From Nanobdellota archaeon (GTDB taxonomy: Archaea > Nanobdellota > Nanobdellia > Woesearchaeales > JAHWHD01): 46,830 bases of DNA. A program made the translations under genes and the position numbers. Shown piece after piece: positions 11,287 through 17,603 of this stretch. The notes beneath the pieces were generated by a model, which was not told where the DNA came from, did not search any database, and saw nothing but the letters and a program-made list of their open reading frames with translations. Location: NCBI GenBank assembly GCA_034722435.1, contig JAYENX010000010.1:1-46830 (forward strand). Direction: 5' to 3'. The number at the start of each line of letters is the position of its first letter. Position 1 is the stretch's first letter.

Positions 11287-12816
11287 ATGTTAGAAAAAAC
11301 AATGGAAGAATTCAAACAATTAGGATTATCGGATAATGTAATTGAAGTATTGAAAAAGAAAGGTTTTACTAAACCTACAACTATCCAAGTTAAAGTTATT
11401 CCTTTACTTTTGGAAGGAGAGAAGGATGTAGTTGGTCAATCTCAGACAGGTACTGGAAAAACTGCTAGTTTTGCACTTCCAATTCTTGAAAGAATAAAAG
11501 AACGTAGTAAAACAGTACAAGCTATTATTTTAACACCTACGAGAGAATTGGCTCTTCAAGTATCGCAAGAAATTGATTCATTAAAAGGGAATAAGAATAT
11601 TAGAATTCTTTCTGTTTATGGTGGTGCTTCAATTGGACCTCAAAGACAAAAACTTAAAGATGGTGTTGATATTGTTGTTGGAACTCCTGGACGGGTAATG
11701 GATTTACAACGAAGAAGATCTTTGAAACTTGATGATATTAAATATGCTGTTCTTGACGAAGCAGATGAAATGTTGAATATGGGTTTTGTTGAGGATATTG
11801 AAACTATTCTACAACATACGCCAAAAGATAAGAAAATGCTTTTATTTTCTGCAACTATGCCGAAACCGATTCTTAAGATTGCTAAAAGATATATGCATGA
11901 ATATGAATTTATTGAGGTTGAAAAAGCTCATGTTGTAACTAAAAATGTTGAGCAAATATATTATGATATTAATCCTAAGGATAGAGTTGAAGCTCTTAAA
12001 AGAATAATTGATAATAATCTTGATTTTCATGGAATTGTATTTTGTAAAACAAAAGCTGAAGTTGATGTTTTGTCTAATCAATTAGTAAAAATGAGTTATG
12101 GTGTGGCGGGACTTCACGGAGATATTGCTCAAAATCAAAGAGAGAAAATTCTTCAACAATTTAGAAAAAAACATGTTAATGTTCTTGTTGCTACCGATGT
12201 AGCTGCTAGAGGGATTGATGTTAATGATTTAACGCATGTTATTAATTATTCTTTGCCTCAAAGTCCACAGTTATATGTACATAGGATAGGACGTACAGGG
12301 AGAGCTGGTAAAAAAGGAATTGCTATTACATTTGTAATTCCGTCTGAGAAAAGAAAGTTAGTTTTTGTTGAAAGAACTAATAATTGTAAACTTATAAAAC
12401 AAAAACTTCCTTCAGCAAAAGATATTATCAAACATAAAGAAGCTCAAATTAAAACTATAATTAAGAATATTATTGATGCAACTGCTGGTAAAGCGTCGAA
12501 GTATAAATTAATGGCAAAAGAACTTTTAGAGGAACATGATTCGCATGAAGTCGTTGCGGCAGTTTTAAAATATAGTTTAAAACATGAATTGGATTTTAAT
12601 AGTTATAGAGATATTTCTGAACCTAAACCATCAAGACATTCTTCAAATTCGGGTAGAGGTGGTTTTAGAAGAGGTAGGTCAAGTCGGTCTGGTAAATCTC
12701 GTTCTAAAAATAGGTCTAATGGTGATAGGTCTGAGAAAAAAAGATATTCTGGTAGTAGGTCTAAAAAAGGTAATAATTCTAGAAAATCCGGTTCTAGACA
12801 TAAAAGAAGAAATTAG
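11287..12816 (+). CDS. DEAD-box RNA helicase (DeaD/CshA-like) with a basic Arg/Ser-rich tail
   Basis: QTGTGKT, PTRELA, TPGR, DEAD, SAT, HRIGRTGRAG; C-terminal RGGFRRGRSSRS tail. Confidence 0.95.
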   Translation: MLEKTMEEFKQLGLSDNVIEVLKKKGFTKPTTIQVKVIPLLLEGEKDVVGQSQTGTGKTASFALPILERIKERSKTVQAIILTPTRELALQVSQEIDSLKGNKNIRILSVYGGASIGPQRQKLKDGVDIVVGTPGRVMDLQRRRSLKLDDIKYAVLDEADEMLNMGFVEDIETILQHTPKDKKMLLFSATMPKPILKIAKRYMHEYEFIEVEKAHVVTKNVEQIYYDINPKDRVEALKRIIDNNLDFHGIVFCKTKAEVDVLSNQLVKMSYGVAGLHGDIAQNQREKILQQFRKKHVNVLVATDVAARGIDVNDLTHVINYSLPQSPQLYVHRIGRTGRAGKKGIAITFVIPSEKRKLVFVERTNNCKLIKQKLPSAKDIIKHKEAQIKTIIKNIIDATAGKASKYKLMAKELLEEHDSHEVVAAVLKYSLKHELDFNSYRDISEPKPSRHSSNSGRGGFRRGRSSRSGKSRSKNRSNGDRSEKKRYSGSRSKKGNNSRKSGSRHKRRN

Positions 12817-12847
12817 AGACTTTTTTTAAAATTAAATAAAAAATATT

Positions 12848-12979
12848 TTAATCGTCTTTTTGTGTTTTATCAATTCTTATTTGACATTCGTCACAATAAT
12901 ACTTCTTTGATTCGCTTTTAGGTACTACAAATCTTTTTTTACATAATCTGCAGTATTTTACTATTTTATAATCTACCAT
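12848..12979 (-). CDS. 43-aa zinc-ribbon microprotein (CxxC-x15-CxxC), not in the ORF track
   Basis: Hand translation MVDYKIVKYCRLCKKRFVVPKSESKKYYCDECQIRIDKTQKDD; ATG 1 nt after the stop of the upstream ORF. Confidence 0.75.
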   Translation of the reverse strand: MVDYKIVKYCRLCKKRFVVPKSESKKYYCDECQIRIDKTQKDD

Positions 12980-12980
12980 T

Positions 12981-13142
12981 TTATCTTCGTTTTTGACGTC
13001 TTTTATAATTTGATTCTGCTTCTAAATCTGTAGAACCGCATTTTTTACATACTAATATTGTAGTTGGTTTAGATTTTTTACCATGAGAATAGTTTCTGTG
13101 CGATTTAATGTCTGTTCCTTTACATTTTTTACATATCATCAT
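12981..13142 (-). CDS. 53-aa basic zinc-ribbon microprotein (CxxC-x24-CxxC), not in the ORF track
   Basis: Hand translation MMICKKCKGTDIKSHRNYSHGKKSKPTTILVCKKCGSTDLEAESNYKRRQKRR; ATG 2 nt after the stop of 13145-13366. Confidence 0.75.
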   Translation of the reverse strand: MMICKKCKGTDIKSHRNYSHGKKSKPTTILVCKKCGSTDLEAESNYKRRQKRR

Positions 13143-13144
13143 TT

Positions 13145-13366
13145 TTAGTACCTCGGAGTTTTATGTTTTGCGTAACAGTTTCTGCAGTAAACAGGTCTTC
13201 CTTCTTTTGGTTTGAAAGGAACTTCGCATTCTTTTCCGCAATCTGCACATTTAGTTTTATGCATATCTCTAGGAGCTGAGTTAAAGCTTCTTTGGTTAAA
13301 ACTGCTAAATTTACTGAAATCTACTGAGCCTGTATCACGTCTATTTTTTCGATTGTTTCTTTTCAT
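13145..13366 (-). CDS. CxxC-x17-CxxC domain protein
   Basis: MHKTKCADCGKECEVPFKPKEGRPVYCRNCY, the typical family signature. Confidence 0.85.
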   Translation of the reverse strand: MKRNNRKNRRDTGSVDFSKFSSFNQRSFNSAPRDMHKTKCADCGKECEVPFKPKEGRPVYCRNCYAKHKTPRY

Positions 13367-13631
13367 TTTAAAGGTTATTATCTGTAATCGGAATATTTTA
13401 ATTCGAATCGTATAAATTTAAATTATAAGCTAAGATAAAAATATTTTGATTATAATTAATAGAAAACAAACTTTCTTTATAAAGGCTTCTGTTTATTGAT
13501 GAATTCATAGTTTTTAATCTTAAATTATTTTTAATAAATTACAGTAAATGAATGTTTAATTATAAAAACTGTTAATTTTAATTGTTTTAAACGGTAAGAA
13601 CTTATTTAAGTAACTGGATTTTTAATTGTTT

Positions 13632-14189
13632 ATGCAAGTTAAGAATCCTAGAAAAAGAAATTTGAAAATATTTACTTTATCTAATTCATTAATGGCTTTT
13701 GCTTTTGGATTATTTGGGCCATTTTATTATCTTTTCATTAACGATATTGGTGGATCTATAGAAAATTTTGGAATTGCGGCTGGTTTAGTTGTTTTATCAG
13801 GTGCTCTGGTTTCTCTTATTGCTGGAAGATATTCTGATAAGTTCGGTAGAAAACCATTTTTAATTTTAGGTGGTTATGCTTCTGCAGTACTTGTTTTTCT
13901 TTATACTATTATTGGATCAATTTGGCAATTATATTTGTTACAAATTTTGAACGGTTTTATTGCTTCTATTTTTGCAACATCAGAACGGTCTTTTCTTGGT
14001 GATATTACTGAAAAGGAAAGTAGAGGCGCGGATATTGGGAAATATGATGCTTTTATTGGAATTGCAGAGGCTATAGCAATTTTTGCAGGAGGTTTTTTAG
14101 CGGGGAGATATGGTTTCGAGATTGTATTCTACATTGTTTCAGTAATTTTTATTATTACTACAACAATAATGTTAAAATTGAAAGAATGA
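13632..14189 (+). CDS. Half-size (about 6 TM) MFS-type transporter
   Basis: MFS motif A GRYSDKFGRK, about six hydrophobic segments, clean stop. Confidence 0.8.
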   Translation: MQVKNPRKRNLKIFTLSNSLMAFAFGLFGPFYYLFINDIGGSIENFGIAAGLVVLSGALVSLIAGRYSDKFGRKPFLILGGYASAVLVFLYTIIGSIWQLYLLQILNGFIASIFATSERSFLGDITEKESRGADIGKYDAFIGIAEAIAIFAGGFLAGRYGFEIVFYIVSVIFIITTTIMLKLKE

Positions 14190-14262
14190 ATAAAAATAAA
14201 AAATGATTTTAATGATTGAATGTTTAGATAAACTTATTAAGTAGTAGAGATTAAATTACAAT

Positions 14263-14466
14263 ATGTATTCCAAATTGAAGAAATTAAAAAAGCATCATCA
14301 ATTGCTTTATTCCTTATTAATTGCAATAGGTATTGTTGCAATTTGGCGAGGGGTATGGATGCTTCTTGATCTTTATTTTTTTTCAAATAATCCTGCAATA
14401 AGCGCTTTAATGTCTTTAATTATTGGTTTGTTGATTATTTTTCTAACTCATTATAAACTTTCTTGA
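14263..14466 (+). CDS. Small 2-TM membrane protein with a WRGVWxLLD motif
   Basis: 67 aa, two hydrophobic helices, upstream AT-rich promoter. Confidence 0.7.
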   Translation: MYSKLKKLKKHHQLLYSLLIAIGIVAIWRGVWMLLDLYFFSNNPAISALMSLIIGLLIIFLTHYKLS

Positions 14467-14486
14467 ATTTGTTTTTTTAATTTAAT

Positions 14487-14510
14487 ATTATTATTATTAT
14501 TATTATTATT
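14487..14510. repeat. (ATT)8 microsatellite, intergenic
   Basis: Eight exact ATT units. Confidence 0.85.
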
Positions 14511-14554
14511 TAGTTTTCAAAAGATTTATTAATTATAACATAATTTTGTTTATT

Positions 14555-14962
14555 ATGACGGAAAGACCTAAGATAGGAGTAGGGGTAATAGTAATTAAAG
14601 ATGAAAAAGTTCTTCTTGGTAAAAGGATGAATGCTCATGGTGAAGGGTCTTGGTGTTTTCCAGGTGGACATCTTGAATTTAATGAAGAAGTTCAGGATTG
14701 TGCAGCTCGTGAAGTTAAAGAAGAAAGCGGTATAGAAATTAAAGATATTCGGATGGGTACTTTTACTAATGATATATTTGAAAAAGAAGGTAAACATTAT
14801 GTTACTTTATTTGTAATCTCGGATTATCATTCTGGCGAAGTTAGAGTTATGGAACCTGAAAAATGTGAAAAATGGGAATGGTTTGAGTGGGATAAGTTGC
14901 CTCAACCTTTATTTGTGCCAATACAAAATTTGTTGAAACAGGGATATAACCCGTTTGAGTGA
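14555..14962 (+). CDS. NUDIX hydrolase (NUDT15/MutT-like)
   Basis: Nudix box GGHLEFNEEVQDCAAREVKEESG; RPKIGVGV N-terminus; ATG at 14555. Confidence 0.9.
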   Translation: MTERPKIGVGVIVIKDEKVLLGKRMNAHGEGSWCFPGGHLEFNEEVQDCAAREVKEESGIEIKDIRMGTFTNDIFEKEGKHYVTLFVISDYHSGEVRVMEPEKCEKWEWFEWDKLPQPLFVPIQNLLKQGYNPFE

Positions 14963-15028
14963 TTGTTTATTTATTATTTTATAATTAACTTATATCTATT
15001 TTATATTCATCTTATATTTATTTTATAT

Positions 15029-15859
15029 TTATCTTATAATATGAATAGTTTTAGTATTTATGTATTTTAAGTTTGATTGAAGTAATTGAAATATGTTTTG
15101 TATTTTTGCTCCGCCTGCATGACCTATTTCTTCATTGTTTTTAAAGCTGCCATATGTGGCTATTCCTGCGAGTTCTCCGTTAGTTGTTGTGAATGCTCCT
15201 CCACTGAAGCCAGGGACCGAATATGCGTCTGTTAAATAAGTGTCAGTTACAAGTTTTCCATCATTATTAATCATTCTAGCATTATGTTTTGTTTTTATTA
15301 TTTTGCCATATTGATTATATGGTGTTCCATTTCTTATACCAAATAATTTAATTGCGTTATTAACTTCTAATTCTTTTTTTAAAATTTTAAATTTTATAGG
15401 TTCAGGTTTTTTGAAATTTATTGCTTTAATAAGTGCGATGTCGTATTCAGGCATGAATGCGTATGTTGTGATGTCTATTGGATAACTATTTCTTTGTTGA
15501 TCAATGATGTAATATCTGTCGAATATGAAATTTAATGTTCCTGTAGTTATTTTATCTTTAGGCATTCCGTGGTTAATGTTGTGCCAATCGTCTATGTAAG
15601 ATTCAATATTGTGGTATGCTGTAAGAATGAATCCATCTGTTGTTAATAGTAGTCCAGTTCCTGAACTTTCGTCTTCTATTCCGAATTTACCGTTAGATAA
15701 TTTCTTTAACTCTCTACTGGAACTGTTTACAATAATTAAGTTATCTGAAATATTTTTTTCTGATTCTTGTTTTGTTAATTCTTGGGATTCATAATCTTTC
15801 ATTGCTTTTTCAAGAGCAAGTATACTTTCTAATCCTGTTTGAGAAGTTCCAAGTATCAT
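15029..15859 (-). CDS. Trypsin-like (S1) serine protease
   Basis: GTGLLL..ILTAYH (His), DIALIK (Asp), PGFSGG (Ser). Confidence 0.8.
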   Translation of the reverse strand: MILGTSQTGLESILALEKAMKDYESQELTKQESEKNISDNLIIVNSSSRELKKLSNGKFGIEDESSGTGLLLTTDGFILTAYHNIESYIDDWHNINHGMPKDKITTGTLNFIFDRYYIIDQQRNSYPIDITTYAFMPEYDIALIKAINFKKPEPIKFKILKKELEVNNAIKLFGIRNGTPYNQYGKIIKTKHNARMINNDGKLVTDTYLTDAYSVPGFSGGAFTTTNGELAGIATYGSFKNNEEIGHAGGAKIQNIFQLLQSNLKYINTKTIHIIR

Positions 15860-15941
15860 GATTGTTTATAGGAGAATCAAATTTATAATATCTTTTCAAG
15901 AAATGTCCCGATTGTTCCGAATTTTCATACATTAAATGTGC

Positions 15942-15966
15942 TAATTGCGGAATTATTCCGTAATTA
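15942..15966. promoter_or_regulatory. 25-bp near-perfect palindrome TAATTGCGGAATTATTCCGTAATTA
   Basis: 12-bp arms match 11/12 around a 1-nt centre; between the tbp stop and the protease promoter. Confidence 0.4.
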
Positions 15967-16004
15967 TTTGTAAAAGTTGTTTTTCTTATATATTTATATA
16001 TATT

Positions 16005-16547
16005 TTATTTCACGTTTACTTTTTTTAGATTTTTAATTAATTGTTCAACGCATTTGTTCATTTCTTCTTCGTTTTTTGTACCTGTACAAACTATTTTTCC
16101 GTTAGAGAATAAGAGGAAGCTTGCGGGATGTGGTTCTTTTATTTTGTATACTAAACCTGGAAATTGTTCTGGTTCGTATTCTGTATTGCTAAGTTTCATT
16201 GTAAGTTCGTTTAAGTTAAGATCAAGACCTAATGCACCCGATCCTACTAGGTTTTGAATTTTAAGTGTTGGTTTGATTGTTATCTTAACATTTAGTTTTT
16301 TGAGATTGTCAATAATCTTAAGAACTGATTTATTTGCATCTTCTATTGTTTTTGCACCTGCGCAAACAACTTTACCTGATGAAAATAATAAAGCTGATGA
16401 TTTTGGTTCTTTGATTCTCATTACTAGTCCTGGGAATTGTTCTGGGTTATACTCTACGTTAGATAATGTAGATGCGATTTTTTCTAATTGTAATTTATGT
16501 TCTAAATCTGTCGTAACTACTAAATTTACTACTTTTATATTTGCCAT
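16005..16547 (-). CDS. tbp: TATA-box-binding protein
   Basis: Two repeats YNPEQFPGLV / YEPEQFPGLV and LLFSSGKVVCAG / LLFSNGKIVCTG; start ATG 16547 after a GAGAGG RBS. Confidence 0.97.
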   Translation of the reverse strand: MANIKVVNLVVTTDLEHKLQLEKIASTLSNVEYNPEQFPGLVMRIKEPKSSALLFSSGKVVCAGAKTIEDANKSVLKIIDNLKKLNVKITIKPTLKIQNLVGSGALGLDLNLNELTMKLSNTEYEPEQFPGLVYKIKEPHPASFLLFSNGKIVCTGTKNEEEMNKCVEQLIKNLKKVNVK

Positions 16548-16695
16548 TTTAAAACCTCTCAAATATCCTGAATTTATGTATTTTAAATAAGAAACCACAG
16601 CTAACGATAAAGGTTTCGGTTTTTGTTTGATAATTATTAAAAAAAAAGAAGTGAGAAAAATAAAAAAAATATTGGATATCTTAAAGAATTATGAT

Positions 16696-16893
16696 TTATT
16701 CTTCTGATTTGCTAACATTAACCGCTTTTGGTCCTCTGTCGCCTTGTTCTACATCGAATGTAACTGAGTCGTTATCTCTTAAAATAACGCCGTCATTCAA
16801 TCCAGTTTGATGAACGAAATATTCATTTCCGTCTTCACCAGCGATGAAACCAAAACCTTTCATGTCATTGAAAAATTTTACTGTTCCTTTCAT
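16696..16893 (-). CDS. cspA: Cold-shock protein (Csp family)
   Basis: MKGTVKFFNDMKGFGFI (RNP1), YFVHQTG (RNP2), GPKAVNV; GGAGG RBS. Confidence 0.93.
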   Translation of the reverse strand: MKGTVKFFNDMKGFGFIAGEDGNEYFVHQTGLNDGVILRDNDSVTFDVEQGDRGPKAVNVSKSEE

Positions 16894-16897
16894 TGTT

Positions 16898-17023
16898 TTA
16901 CCTCCACACTATATTGTGAATTTGATTTTTATATTTATCACTATAGGATATTTTAGTATGTCTATCATTAATTATAGATATTTGACATAATTTACAATGT
17001 TTTGTTGTTTTGTGATTATCCAT
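16898..17023 (-). CDS. 41-aa upstream ORF of csp; degenerate paralogue of the 43-aa zinc-ribbon microprotein
   Basis: MDNHKTTKHCKLCQISIINDRHTKISYSDKYKNQIHNIVWR; its stop TAA falls between the csp GGAGG and ATG. Confidence 0.5.
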   Translation of the reverse strand: MDNHKTTKHCKLCQISIINDRHTKISYSDKYKNQIHNIVWR

Positions 17024-17249
17024 TTTATCATTAGCTAAACTTGATTTAAGCTAATAATTTATAGTGGCAGAAACAGATTAACATTTTTGGTTATTGGTTA
17101 AGTGCTCTGGTTATAAATAATAATAAGGTTAAATCTTTCTTTATTTATAAAGGTTGCTATTTATTCCTGTATAAATTGATTTATTTATGTTTAATATTTA
17201 CATTAATTACAATAATGGTTTATATATAACAATTAGTTTTATTAAATGT

Positions 17250-17591
17250 ATGAAAGGTAAAAGATTGAGTATATCTATTATATCAGGTGCAGTACTTGGT
17301 ATTTTTTGTATAATAGGTATTTCTTTTCGACTTGGGTATACTGGTAATGAACTTTTTATTATTTCAACATGGATAAATAGGGTTGTTATGGGTTTAGTAA
17401 TAGGTTTAGCGCCGTATTATAAAATTAAGGGTAACACTAGAAATATTTTATTTCGTGGGGCGTTTTTAGGATTGATAATCAGTGGATCTTTTTATCTTGC
17501 AACTAATTTTTATGATTTTCCAGGTTTTGTAGCAGGAATTGTTTATGGTATTATAATAGATTATGTTGCAACAAGATATGGGAAGAAATGA
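17250..17591 (+). CDS. Integral membrane protein (about 4 TM)
   Basis: Gly-rich hydrophobic helices; ATG 17250 (MKGKRLS) preferred. Confidence 0.7.
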   Translation: MKGKRLSISIISGAVLGIFCIIGISFRLGYTGNELFIISTWINRVVMGLVIGLAPYYKIKGNTRNILFRGAFLGLIISGSFYLATNFYDFPGFVAGIVYGIIIDYVATRYGKK

Positions 17592-17603
17592 AATTTCTAT
17601 GAA

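What the first reader, a model, noticed from the sequence alone, without database searches (positions are those of the whole stretch)
16898..17023. Decayed zinc-ribbon paralogue as a uORF that ends inside the csp ribosome-binding site
Seen: the 41-codon ORF MDNHKTTKHCKLC..SYSDKY.. aligns without gaps at the N-terminus to the 43-aa microprotein MVDYKIVKYCRLC..YYCDEC (K5, K8, C10, L12, C13 identical; K/R at 11). The second Cys pair appears as S and Y, with codons AGT and TAT, each one base from TGT. Its last codons read GTG-TGG-AGG-TAA-AACA-ATG, so the stop sits between the csp GGAGG and its ATG. A TTAGCT..AGCTAA inverted repeat (17031-17054) lies just upstream. Established: csp genes are typically controlled through long 5' leaders. 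Inference: a zinc-ribbon gene was once paired with csp and has decayed or been repurposed as a leader peptide that couples translation. This links the microprotein family to cold-shock RNA biology.
Basis: partly seen in the sequence, partly recalled or inferred. Interest (0 to 1): 0.72.

Follow-up and report, generated by a model that had tools for sequence, protein, structure and literature searches.

The report
Dead zinc-finger gene before csp
The 41-codon reading frame in front of the cold-shock gene is the worn-out remnant of a tiny four-cysteine zinc-finger gene that, in related Woesearchaeota-type archaea, sits intact in exactly that place; whether the remnant still helps csp translation is unproven.

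Summary
Observation confirmed in every detail. In relatives of the same archaeal order (Woesearchaeota/Nanoarchaeota MAGs), an intact 38-57-aa CxxC..CxxC gene ("ZR43") lies directly upstream of csp: 26 of 29 and 44 of 52 ZR43 loci in two samples. Its stop lies 4 nt inside to 24 nt before the csp ATG in 23 of 25 measured pairs.

The window ORF (16898-17023, minus) occupies that slot and keeps the GGAGG-stop-4 nt-ATG junction. Its residual similarity is significant: p about 0.001 by shuffles, and rank 6 of 15,279 genome ORFs against a family profile.

It is not a working family member:
- Two of four Cys and four other invariant residues are lost.
- It scores 10.5 bits against 65-87 for intact genes.
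- Its substitutions are spread evenly over codon positions (19/15/19).

The intact copy (12848-12979) stays with two other zinc-finger genes beside a DEAD-box helicase gene.

The only strong TATA box (17151) lies upstream of the ORF, so it probably forms most of the csp 5' leader. No TSS data exist.

Repurposing as a coupling leader peptide is not shown. Four further independent relics turned up; only one is still open.

The parts
16898..17023 (-). Relic ORF (psi-ZR43), 41 codons plus TAA. The first CxxC knuckle is kept; the second pair is now S and Y.
16901..16905 (-). GGAGG Shine-Dalgarno of csp, inside the last codons of the relic. The relic stop TAA (16898-16900) follows, then 4 nt, then the csp ATG.
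   Evidence: The same junction occurs in intact pairs, e.g. L048, L023, L045.
16696..16893 (-). csp, 65 aa cold-shock domain protein
   Evidence: Pfam CSD E 9.5e-20; 60-87% identical to csp of relatives
16639..16669 (-). T-runs (T8, T5, T9) just after csp: a likely archaeal oligo-T terminator. There is no T-run of 4 or more between 17119 and 16893.
   Evidence: Read directly; function inferred
17027..17058 (-). 14-bp hairpin ending 3 nt before the relic ATG.
   Evidence: -9.6 kcal/mol, z -3.6. Role unknown.
17058..17117 (-). Weak counterpart of the order's conserved leader hairpin (..CCAGAG .. CTGTTTCTG..)
   Evidence: MAFFT places it on the ATCAG/TTCTGA halves and the MFE pairs them. The covariance model gives only 8.4 bits, not significant.
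17144..17151 (-). TATA box TTTATAAA, the only strong promoter element upstream of csp. Predicted TSS about 17119.
   Evidence: PWM score 14.1; 6e-5 of random genome positions score as high. In this genome the TATA-to-ATG distance peaks at 30-35 nt.
12848..12979 (-). Intact ZR43 paralogue (43 aa, four Cys), last gene of the zinc-finger trio, followed by a T-run and no csp
12981..13366 (-). zr53 (12981-13142) and zr73 (13145-13366; Pfam zf_Tbcl_2, TIGR04272), upstream partners of ZR43
13381..13483 (-). Promoter (TTTATAAA, 13483-13476) and canonical leader hairpin (13458-13381) of the trio
   Evidence: Best hit of leader model R1 in the whole window, 17.4 bits; sequence
11287..12816 (+). DEAD-box RNA helicase, convergent on the trio. 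Its homologue adjoins the csp/ZR43 cluster in 17 fetched loci of relatives.
   Evidence: Pfam DEAD + Helicase_C

Best explanation
The ORF is a pseudogenised copy of ZR43. ZR43 is an unnamed, roughly 43-aa four-cysteine zinc-finger microprotein. In Woesearchaeota-type archaea its gene is the one immediately 5' of csp, joined to it by an overlapping or very short junction.

In this genome a working ZR43 remains with zr73 and zr53 beside the helicase gene. The copy in front of csp has drifted without protein-level constraint and can no longer bind zinc through four Cys.

What remains is the old scaffold:
- a TATA box at 17151;
- a leader of about 95 nt with hairpins;
- the old start codon;
- 41 open codons;
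- the old GGAGG-stop-ATG junction.

So the relic now makes up most of a csp 5' leader of about 225 nt. It is probably co-transcribed, and ribosomes may still run through it. csp translation most likely relies mainly on its own strong SD, with coupling at most an inherited side effect.

Shown: homology, synteny, loss of family-defining residues, neutral-like substitution pattern.
Inferred: the transcript structure, translation of the relic, and its effect on csp.
For: Synteny:
- 10 of 30 relatives' csp loci have intact ZR43 directly upstream.
- 26 of 29 top ZR43 loci and 44 of 52 genome-contig loci have csp directly downstream.
- ZR43 was found in 153 of 401 genomes of the order, mostly as a single copy.
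- The junction spacing is -4 to +24 in 23 of 25 measured pairs. The window is +4 with the same GGAGG-stop layout.

Residual homology: p 0.0012 by shuffles; rank 6 of 15,279 ORFs; the only intermediate score among the ORFs next to csp in the loci.

Decay:
- Invariant Y4, I6, R16, V19, C29 and C32 are all changed.
- All 100 full-length family representatives keep four Cys.
- Differences by codon position are 19/15/19, against for example 6/4/19 for orthologues.

Transcript: the only strong TATA box in the 330 nt upstream is at 17151. Candidate internal TATA boxes are poor. There is no T-run before csp and there are strong T-runs after it.

Recurrent independent relics before csp occur in G211, G067, G101 and G170.
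Against: - No TSS, RNA or ribosome data exist.
- A weak TATA-like run at 16933 could give csp its own short leader.
- The frame is still open with its start codon. Under simulated neutral decay that has probability 0.017 at the observed divergence and 0.045 at p-distance 0.3. This hints at some constraint.
- The leader upstream of the relic is not a significant match to the conserved leader model: 8.4 bits.
- No close relative was found. Same-genus and same-family genomes are only 68-74% identical in DNA, and metagenome TBP loci are at most 69% identical in protein. So selection on this particular ORF cannot be measured.
Confidence: 0.6

Rival explanations
1. Exapted leader peptide. The relic is kept open and translated. 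Ribosomes terminating at UAA, 4 nt before the csp AUG, reinitiate or keep the SD accessible. Csp output would then follow ribosome traffic through the former gene, possibly in a temperature-dependent way.
For: - Start, frame and stop position are all retained despite heavy decay; neutral simulation gives 1.7-4.5%.
- A second heavily decayed relic (G067:C41, 10.4 bits) is also open, with ATG kept and TAA 1 nt before the csp ATG after GGAGG.
- Termination-reinitiation coupling works in archaea and needs overlaps or very short distances; about 20 nt nearly abolishes it (PMC10666635, PMC6728339). The +4 spacing qualifies.
Against: - Three of five relics are broken: G211 by a frameshift, G101 by a lost start plus stops, G170 by a stop at codon 8. 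An open frame is therefore not generally needed for csp.
- Many relatives express csp from the leader alone.
- csp has its own GGAGG at good spacing, and the whole-leader MFE fold does not show the GGAGG locked in a long stem.
- The window case was picked because it is an ORF, which is an ascertainment bias.
Confidence: 0.22
2. csp has its own promoter inside or after the relic, for example the A/T-rich run at about 16933. The relic would then be untranscribed, or a separate dead unit, rather than a csp leader.
For: - The TATA-like sequence at 16933 scores in the top 0.3% of random positions, and related 8-mers are about 10-fold enriched at promoter positions.
- Its spacing would give a short SD-bearing leader.
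Against: - Its score is 1.7, against 14.1 for the site at 17151 and a median of 12.9 for the genome's own TATA sites.
- It lacks the TTTA core.
- Intact relatives transcribe csp through ZR43.
Confidence: 0.2
3. A still-functional, divergent microprotein that uses the remaining CxxC with His or other ligands.
For: Open frame; basic composition kept; four His present.
Against: - No homologue was found among 5.8 billion proteins or in metagenome contigs.
- Every full-length family member keeps four Cys.
- The codon-position pattern is flat.
- There is no Pfam or NCBIfam match.
Confidence: 0.05
4. A chance ORF in AT-rich DNA that happens to contain CxxC and has no common origin with ZR43.
For: - The genome-wide E-value is only 0.42.
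- ORFs of 30-50 codons ending near csp occur by chance in other loci.
Against: It is a single pre-specified candidate at the syntenic position, with empirical p about 4e-4 to 1e-3. It has the same length, start and junction as the intact gene. Comparable relics exist elsewhere.
Confidence: 0.05

Closest known systems
ZR43: an unnamed four-Cys microprotein family of Woesearchaeota/Nanoarchaeota (no Pfam or NCBIfam model; sources call it 'hypothetical protein')
   Same: Same genomic slot directly 5' of csp. Same length class, start, first CxxC knuckle and GGAGG-stop-ATG junction.
   Different: The second Cys pair and four other invariant residues are lost. It scores 10.5 bits against 65-87. Its substitution pattern is neutral-like. 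It is a relic, not a member in working order.
Translational coupling by termination-reinitiation in overlapping or closely spaced archaeal gene pairs (Huber et al., PMC6728339, PMC10666635)
   Same: The stop is 4 nt before the downstream start, with the SD inside the upstream frame. Intact ZR43-csp pairs often overlap as ATGA (7 of 25 measured pairs).
   Different: Here the upstream frame no longer encodes a functional partner. Coupling is untested, and the relics in three other genomes are broken.
Bacterial cspA-type long 5' UTR (Rfam cspA thermoregulator)
   Same: A cold-shock gene behind a long structured leader.
   Different: No Rfam match. The host is archaeal. Most of the leader is a dead gene. 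The order's own leader hairpin (ATCAG..CTGAT) is a different, undescribed element.
csp genes next to small zinc-ribbon genes in the E. coli Qin prophage (ynfQ/ymcF, ynfU), from earlier scan notes e1-403876 and e1-328292
   Same: Adjacency of csp and a tiny zinc-binding protein gene.
   Different: Bacterial prophage cargo. No sequence relationship was tested here. This is a lead only.

Membership tests
ZR43 four-Cys microprotein family | CxxC ... CxxC: all four Cys present | tested here: not met
   C10 and C13 are kept; positions 29 and 32 are S and Y. All 100 full-length representatives are CCCC.
ZR43 four-Cys microprotein family | Other invariant residues: Y4, I6, R16, V19 | tested here: not met
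   They are H, T, S and N in the relic.
ZR43 four-Cys microprotein family | Profile score in the family range | tested here: not met
   10.5 bits against 65-87 bits for intact genes, though above the 2.4-bit ceiling of unrelated ORFs next to csp in the loci.
ZR43 four-Cys microprotein family | Gene directly 5' of csp, with the stop overlapping or a few nt before the csp ATG | tested here: met
   +4 nt, with GGAGG inside the last codons.
ZR43 four-Cys microprotein family | Purifying selection: differences concentrated at third codon positions | tested here: not met
   19/15/19, against for example 6/4/19 and 10/6/20 in orthologues.
Pseudogene / gene relic | Homology to a functional gene, loss of essential residues, and neutral divergence | tested here: met
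Pseudogene / gene relic | Disrupted reading frame | tested here: not met
   The frame is open with ATG and TAA. Relics in G211, G101 and G170 are disrupted.
Translationally coupled upstream ORF (termination-reinitiation) | The upstream stop overlaps or lies within a few nt of the downstream start | tested here: met
   +4 nt. The distance requirement is from PMC10666635.
Translationally coupled upstream ORF (termination-reinitiation) | Both frames lie on one transcript and the upstream frame is translated | not testable with these tools
   There is only a promoter prediction at 17151. No RNA or ribosome data exist.
Translationally coupled upstream ORF (termination-reinitiation) | The open frame is maintained wherever the relic occurs | tested here: inconclusive
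   2 of 5 relics are open. Neutral expectation for this one is 2-9%.
Rfam cspA thermoregulator or any Rfam leader | Match to the covariance model | tested here: not met
   No relevant match at E up to 10 in 12500-17600.
Order-wide cold-shock cluster leader hairpin (model R1, built here) | Significant match just downstream of the promoter | tested here: inconclusive
   8.4 bits at 17058-17117. 19 independent loci score 31-53 bits, and the trio's leader scores 17.4 bits.

The most novel reading that the evidence does not exclude
A dead gene has been turned into a regulatory leader peptide. The relic would be kept open only so that ribosomes finishing 4 nt before the csp AUG can couple Csp synthesis to translation flux, for example in the cold. 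This would have happened independently in at least two Woesearchaeota lineages (this genome and G067).
Probability: 0.2. Interest if true: 0.6.

Novelty: new member of a known kind. Interest (0 to 1): 0.45.

Why it matters
- It confirms by synteny that an unannotated four-Cys microprotein is a regular, tightly joined partner of the cold-shock protein gene in a large group of DPANN archaea. That points to a Csp-zinc-finger-helicase RNA-handling module that nobody has studied.
- It shows that this partner is repeatedly lost, leaving relics in the csp leader. That makes the family look dispensable or redundant once duplicated.
- It offers natural 'start/stop mutant' series (open versus broken relics) for asking whether archaeal termination-reinitiation coupling can outlive the upstream gene.
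- For annotation, it warns that this short CxxC-bearing ORF should be called a pseudogene or leader, not a protein.

Tried and rejected
Searches for homologues and close relatives:
- The relic as a query against 5.8 billion proteins: no candidate.
- The relic's 50-aa open frame against metagenome contigs: no relative (one search failed on length).
- A TBP-anchored search for a close relative: 80 loci, at most 69% identical, none with csp or ZR genes nearby. The csp-TBP adjacency was seen only in this genome.
- Same-genus and same-family genomes are too distant (68-74% DNA identity) and lack this synteny.

RNA and promoter checks:
- Rfam: nothing relevant.
- Leader model R1 on the relic's leader: not significant.
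- Promoter and leader similarity between the two window loci, as a sign of recent duplication: not significant, p 0.05-0.09.
- Internal promoter 'CTATAAAT' at 17053: that 8-mer was never seen at promoter positions in this genome.
- No covariation supports the leader stem; there are only G-U changes.

Other checks:
- Foldseek of the ZR43 model against the PDB: no significant hit.
- A weak 'relic' in G390 (5.5 bits) was rejected. It is a TATA box read as protein.
- Literature: no paper on a ZR43-csp operon was found.

Full report
SETTING. The window is AT-rich (32% GC). It comes from a 1.3-Mb genome in 60 contigs, 94.5% complete. The host is archaeal: a TBP gene (16005-16547, minus; Pfam TBP E 4.6e-58) lies just downstream of csp. 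Public MAGs that carry the same microprotein are titled Candidatus Woesearchaeota, Nanoarchaeota or Pacearchaeota, so this is a DPANN archaeon of that group.

OBSERVATION.
- The ORF, minus strand 17023-16898, has 41 codons. It ends GTG-TGG-AGG-TAA, followed by AACA and the csp ATG at 16893.
- The 43-aa partner is at 12848-12979.
- The N-terminal identities (M1, K5, K8, C10, L12, C13) hold.
- With one gap, Y-S-D-K-Y aligns to Y-C-D-E-C. AGT and TAT replace the two TGT codons.
- The inverted repeat at 17031-17054 is real. It extends to a 14-bp hairpin: -9.6 kcal/mol, z -3.6.

IS THE SIMILARITY MORE THAN CHANCE? Pairwise, the local score is 43 against 21.9 +/- 4.4 for 20,000 shuffles, p 0.0012. 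I built a profile from 30 family members of other genomes, leaving out both window copies. Against it the ORF scores 10.5 bits and ranks 6th of 15,279 stop-to-stop ORFs (30-90 aa) of its own genome. Genome-wide that is not significant (E 0.42). For one candidate fixed in advance by position, it corresponds to p of about 4e-4. In the 30 relatives' csp loci, ORFs that end beside the csp start score either 65-87 bits (intact genes) or 2.4 bits or less. The window ORF is the only intermediate among them.

THE DECISIVE TEST: RELATIVES.
- In 10 of 30 relatives' csp loci, an intact M-V-D-Y-K-I-V-K-Y-C-x-x-C ... C-x-x-C gene of 38-57 aa ("ZR43") lies directly before csp.
- A profile search of 401 genomes of the order found ZR43 in 153, mostly as a single copy.
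- Of the 29 best foreign loci, 26 have csp immediately downstream.
- In a separate collection, 44 of 52 ZR43 loci do.
- Several genomes carry the full series zr73-zr53-zr43-csp: L034, L035, L043 and L234.
- A DEAD-box helicase homologous to window gene 11287-12816 adjoins the cluster in 17 fetched loci.
- Neither Pfam nor NCBIfam has a model for ZR43. Sources call it hypothetical.
- A representative-level search found only 95 clusters at E up to 0.001.
- AlphaFold gives a beta-hairpin plus a C-terminal helix at pLDDT 87. That is treble-clef-like rather than a classic ribbon, with no significant PDB fold hit.

THE JUNCTION IS INHERITED. In 25 distinct ZR43-csp pairs with a measured spacing, the ZR43 stop lies at -4 (ATGA overlap, 7 pairs), -1, +3/+4 (5 pairs) or up to +24 nt from the csp ATG in 23 of them. 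GGAGG often sits inside the last ZR43 codons. The window layout, GGAGG-TAA-4 nt-ATG, matches L048, L023 and L045. So a stop between the RBS and the ATG is the ancestral operon joint and not an innovation of the relic. Such spacings are the ones that support termination-reinitiation coupling in archaea; about 20 nt nearly abolishes it. They are also enriched in pairs that encode subunits of complexes (PMC10666635, PMC6728339). This makes a ZR43-Csp partnership plausible in the intact operons. That is inference.

THE WINDOW COPY IS DEAD AS A PROTEIN.
- The family alignment has nine invariant columns: M1, Y4, I6, C10, C13, R16, V19, C29 and C32. The relic keeps only M1, C10 and C13.
- All 100 full-length family representatives keep four Cys. 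The only exceptions are four N-terminally truncated gene calls.
- Differences from the intact paralogue fall evenly on codon positions: 19/15/19 of 40 codons. Intact orthologues differ mainly at third positions, for example 6/4/19 and 10/6/20.
- No homologue of the relic peptide was found.

WHERE THE INTACT COPY WENT. In this genome the intact ZR43 is the last gene of zr73-zr53-zr43 (13366-12848). That trio has a canonical promoter (TTTATAAA, 13483-13476) and the order's leader hairpin. The hairpin is the best hit of my leader model in the whole window, at 13381-13458 (17.4 bits). The trio ends in a T-run, convergent on the helicase gene, with no csp after it. csp lies 3.8 kb away with the relic. 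So two ZR43 copies existed and the one in front of csp became redundant. The order of events (duplication, translocation) cannot be recovered. The promoter and leader regions of the two loci are not significantly alike. The csp-TBP adjacency was seen in none of 80 metagenomic TBP loci.

TRANSCRIPT STRUCTURE (PREDICTED).
- The genome's TATA consensus is TTTAWAWA. Its distance to the ATG peaks sharply at 30-35 nt (107 of 257 sites), which points to mostly leaderless mRNAs.
- In the 330 nt upstream of csp, the only strong site is TTTATAAA at 17151: score 14.1, and 6e-5 of random positions score as high. This predicts a TSS near 17119, upstream of the relic.
- The 'CTATAAAT' at 17053 never occurs at promoter positions in this genome. 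The A/T run at 16933 scores 1.7.
- No T-run of 4 or more lies between 17119 and csp. T8, T5 and T9 follow csp.
- The relic therefore most likely forms the bulk of a csp leader of about 225 nt. The refutation condition 'TSS downstream of 17023' remains open, because nothing here measures RNA.

IS THE OPEN FRAME SELECTED?
- Simulated neutral point substitution from the intact paralogue leaves the frame open in 5% of runs at the observed nucleotide divergence (0.44). It leaves the frame open with a start codon in 1.7%. At divergence 0.3 the figures are 9% and 4.5%.
- A frame-agnostic profile scan of 76 further csp upstream regions without intact ZR43 found four more relics.
  - G067:C41 has an open 34-codon frame with one Cys left and TAA 1 nt before the csp ATG after GGAGG. 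The same genome has an intact ZR43-csp pair elsewhere.
  - G211:C13 is frameshifted and has lost two Cys.
  - G101:C81 has lost its start and contains stops.
  - G170:C6 has a stop at codon 8 and is truncated after the first knuckle, whose codons now supply the csp SD.
- Two of five relics open is roughly what neutral decay would allow.
- Many relatives run csp from the leader alone. The genome with the closest ZR43 (G401) has separate ZR43 and csp units and no relic.
- csp has its own GGAGG 7 nt before the ATG, and the whole-leader MFE fold does not show the GGAGG locked in a long stem.
- I therefore rate 'exapted coupling peptide' at about 0.2 and 'co-transcribed relic with at most incidental coupling' as most likely.

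LEADER ELEMENT (SIDE RESULT). Upstream of the first gene of the cluster, many relatives have a strong promoter followed about 30 nt later by a conserved pair of half-sites, A-T-C-A-G-A ... T-C-T-G-A-T, that close a hairpin of variable length. A covariance model built from 14 of them found 19 further hits at E below 0.01 in 100 independent loci, always on the coding strand just before the cluster. Rfam has no such family. The stem shows only G-U variation and no compensatory changes. An RNA role is therefore likely but unproven, and a DNA operator is not excluded. The relic's own leader resembles it only weakly: 8.4 bits.

UNPUBLISHED GENOMES. G001 and G002 (loci L023, L024, L062-L069) are unpublished. 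These statements rest on them:
- the same-family genome has leader-ZR43-csp-helicase;
- the same-genus genome has helicase-csp and no ZR43 hit;
- the 68-74% DNA identity figures.
L023 is also 1 of 30 sequences in the scoring profile and 1 of 14 in the leader model seed. It is not in alignment A1. The genome tallies include further unpublished genomes, which those outputs name. The main conclusions stand without them.

VERDICT. The relic itself is an ordinary kind of object, a decaying redundant paralogue. Its value is as evidence for an undescribed ZR43-Csp-helicase module.

Noticed in passing
window 13381-13458 (-); also L252:504-579, L234:98-177, L240:106-185 and 16 more loci: Conserved 5' leader hairpin (ATCAG..CTGAT halves, variable insert) about 30 nt after the TATA box of the cold-shock/zinc-finger cluster across the order. 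There is no Rfam family. It shows only G-U variation and no covariation.
   Followed up: partly
L193 (G067:C41), L150 (G211:C13), L226 (G101:C81), L223 (G170:C6): Four independent decayed ZR43 relics directly upstream of csp in other genomes. One is still open and three are broken. In G170 the codons of the first knuckle now serve as the csp Shine-Dalgarno.
   Followed up: partly
whole genome: The TATA box (TTTAWAWA) sits 30-35 nt before the ATG at 107 of 257 sites, so most mRNAs of this organism are probably leaderless. csp and the zinc-finger trio are exceptions, with leaders of about 100 nt or more.
   Followed up: partly
window 13626-14189 (+) and 14546-14962 (+): The MFS transporter match covers only the N-terminal half of the profile in a 187-aa ORF. 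A separate 138-aa ORF follows. This may be a split or degraded transporter between the trio and csp.
   Followed up: no
window 16005-16598 (-): TBP lies directly downstream of csp. None of 80 metagenomic TBP loci (at most 69% identical) has csp or ZR genes within 2.5 kb, so this neighbourhood looks rearranged in this lineage.
   Followed up: partly
P0020, P0042, P0044, P0045: Some ZR43 family representatives are 97-131 aa with the ZR43 part at the C-terminus. These may be fusions with the upstream zinc-finger genes or over-long gene calls.
   Followed up: no
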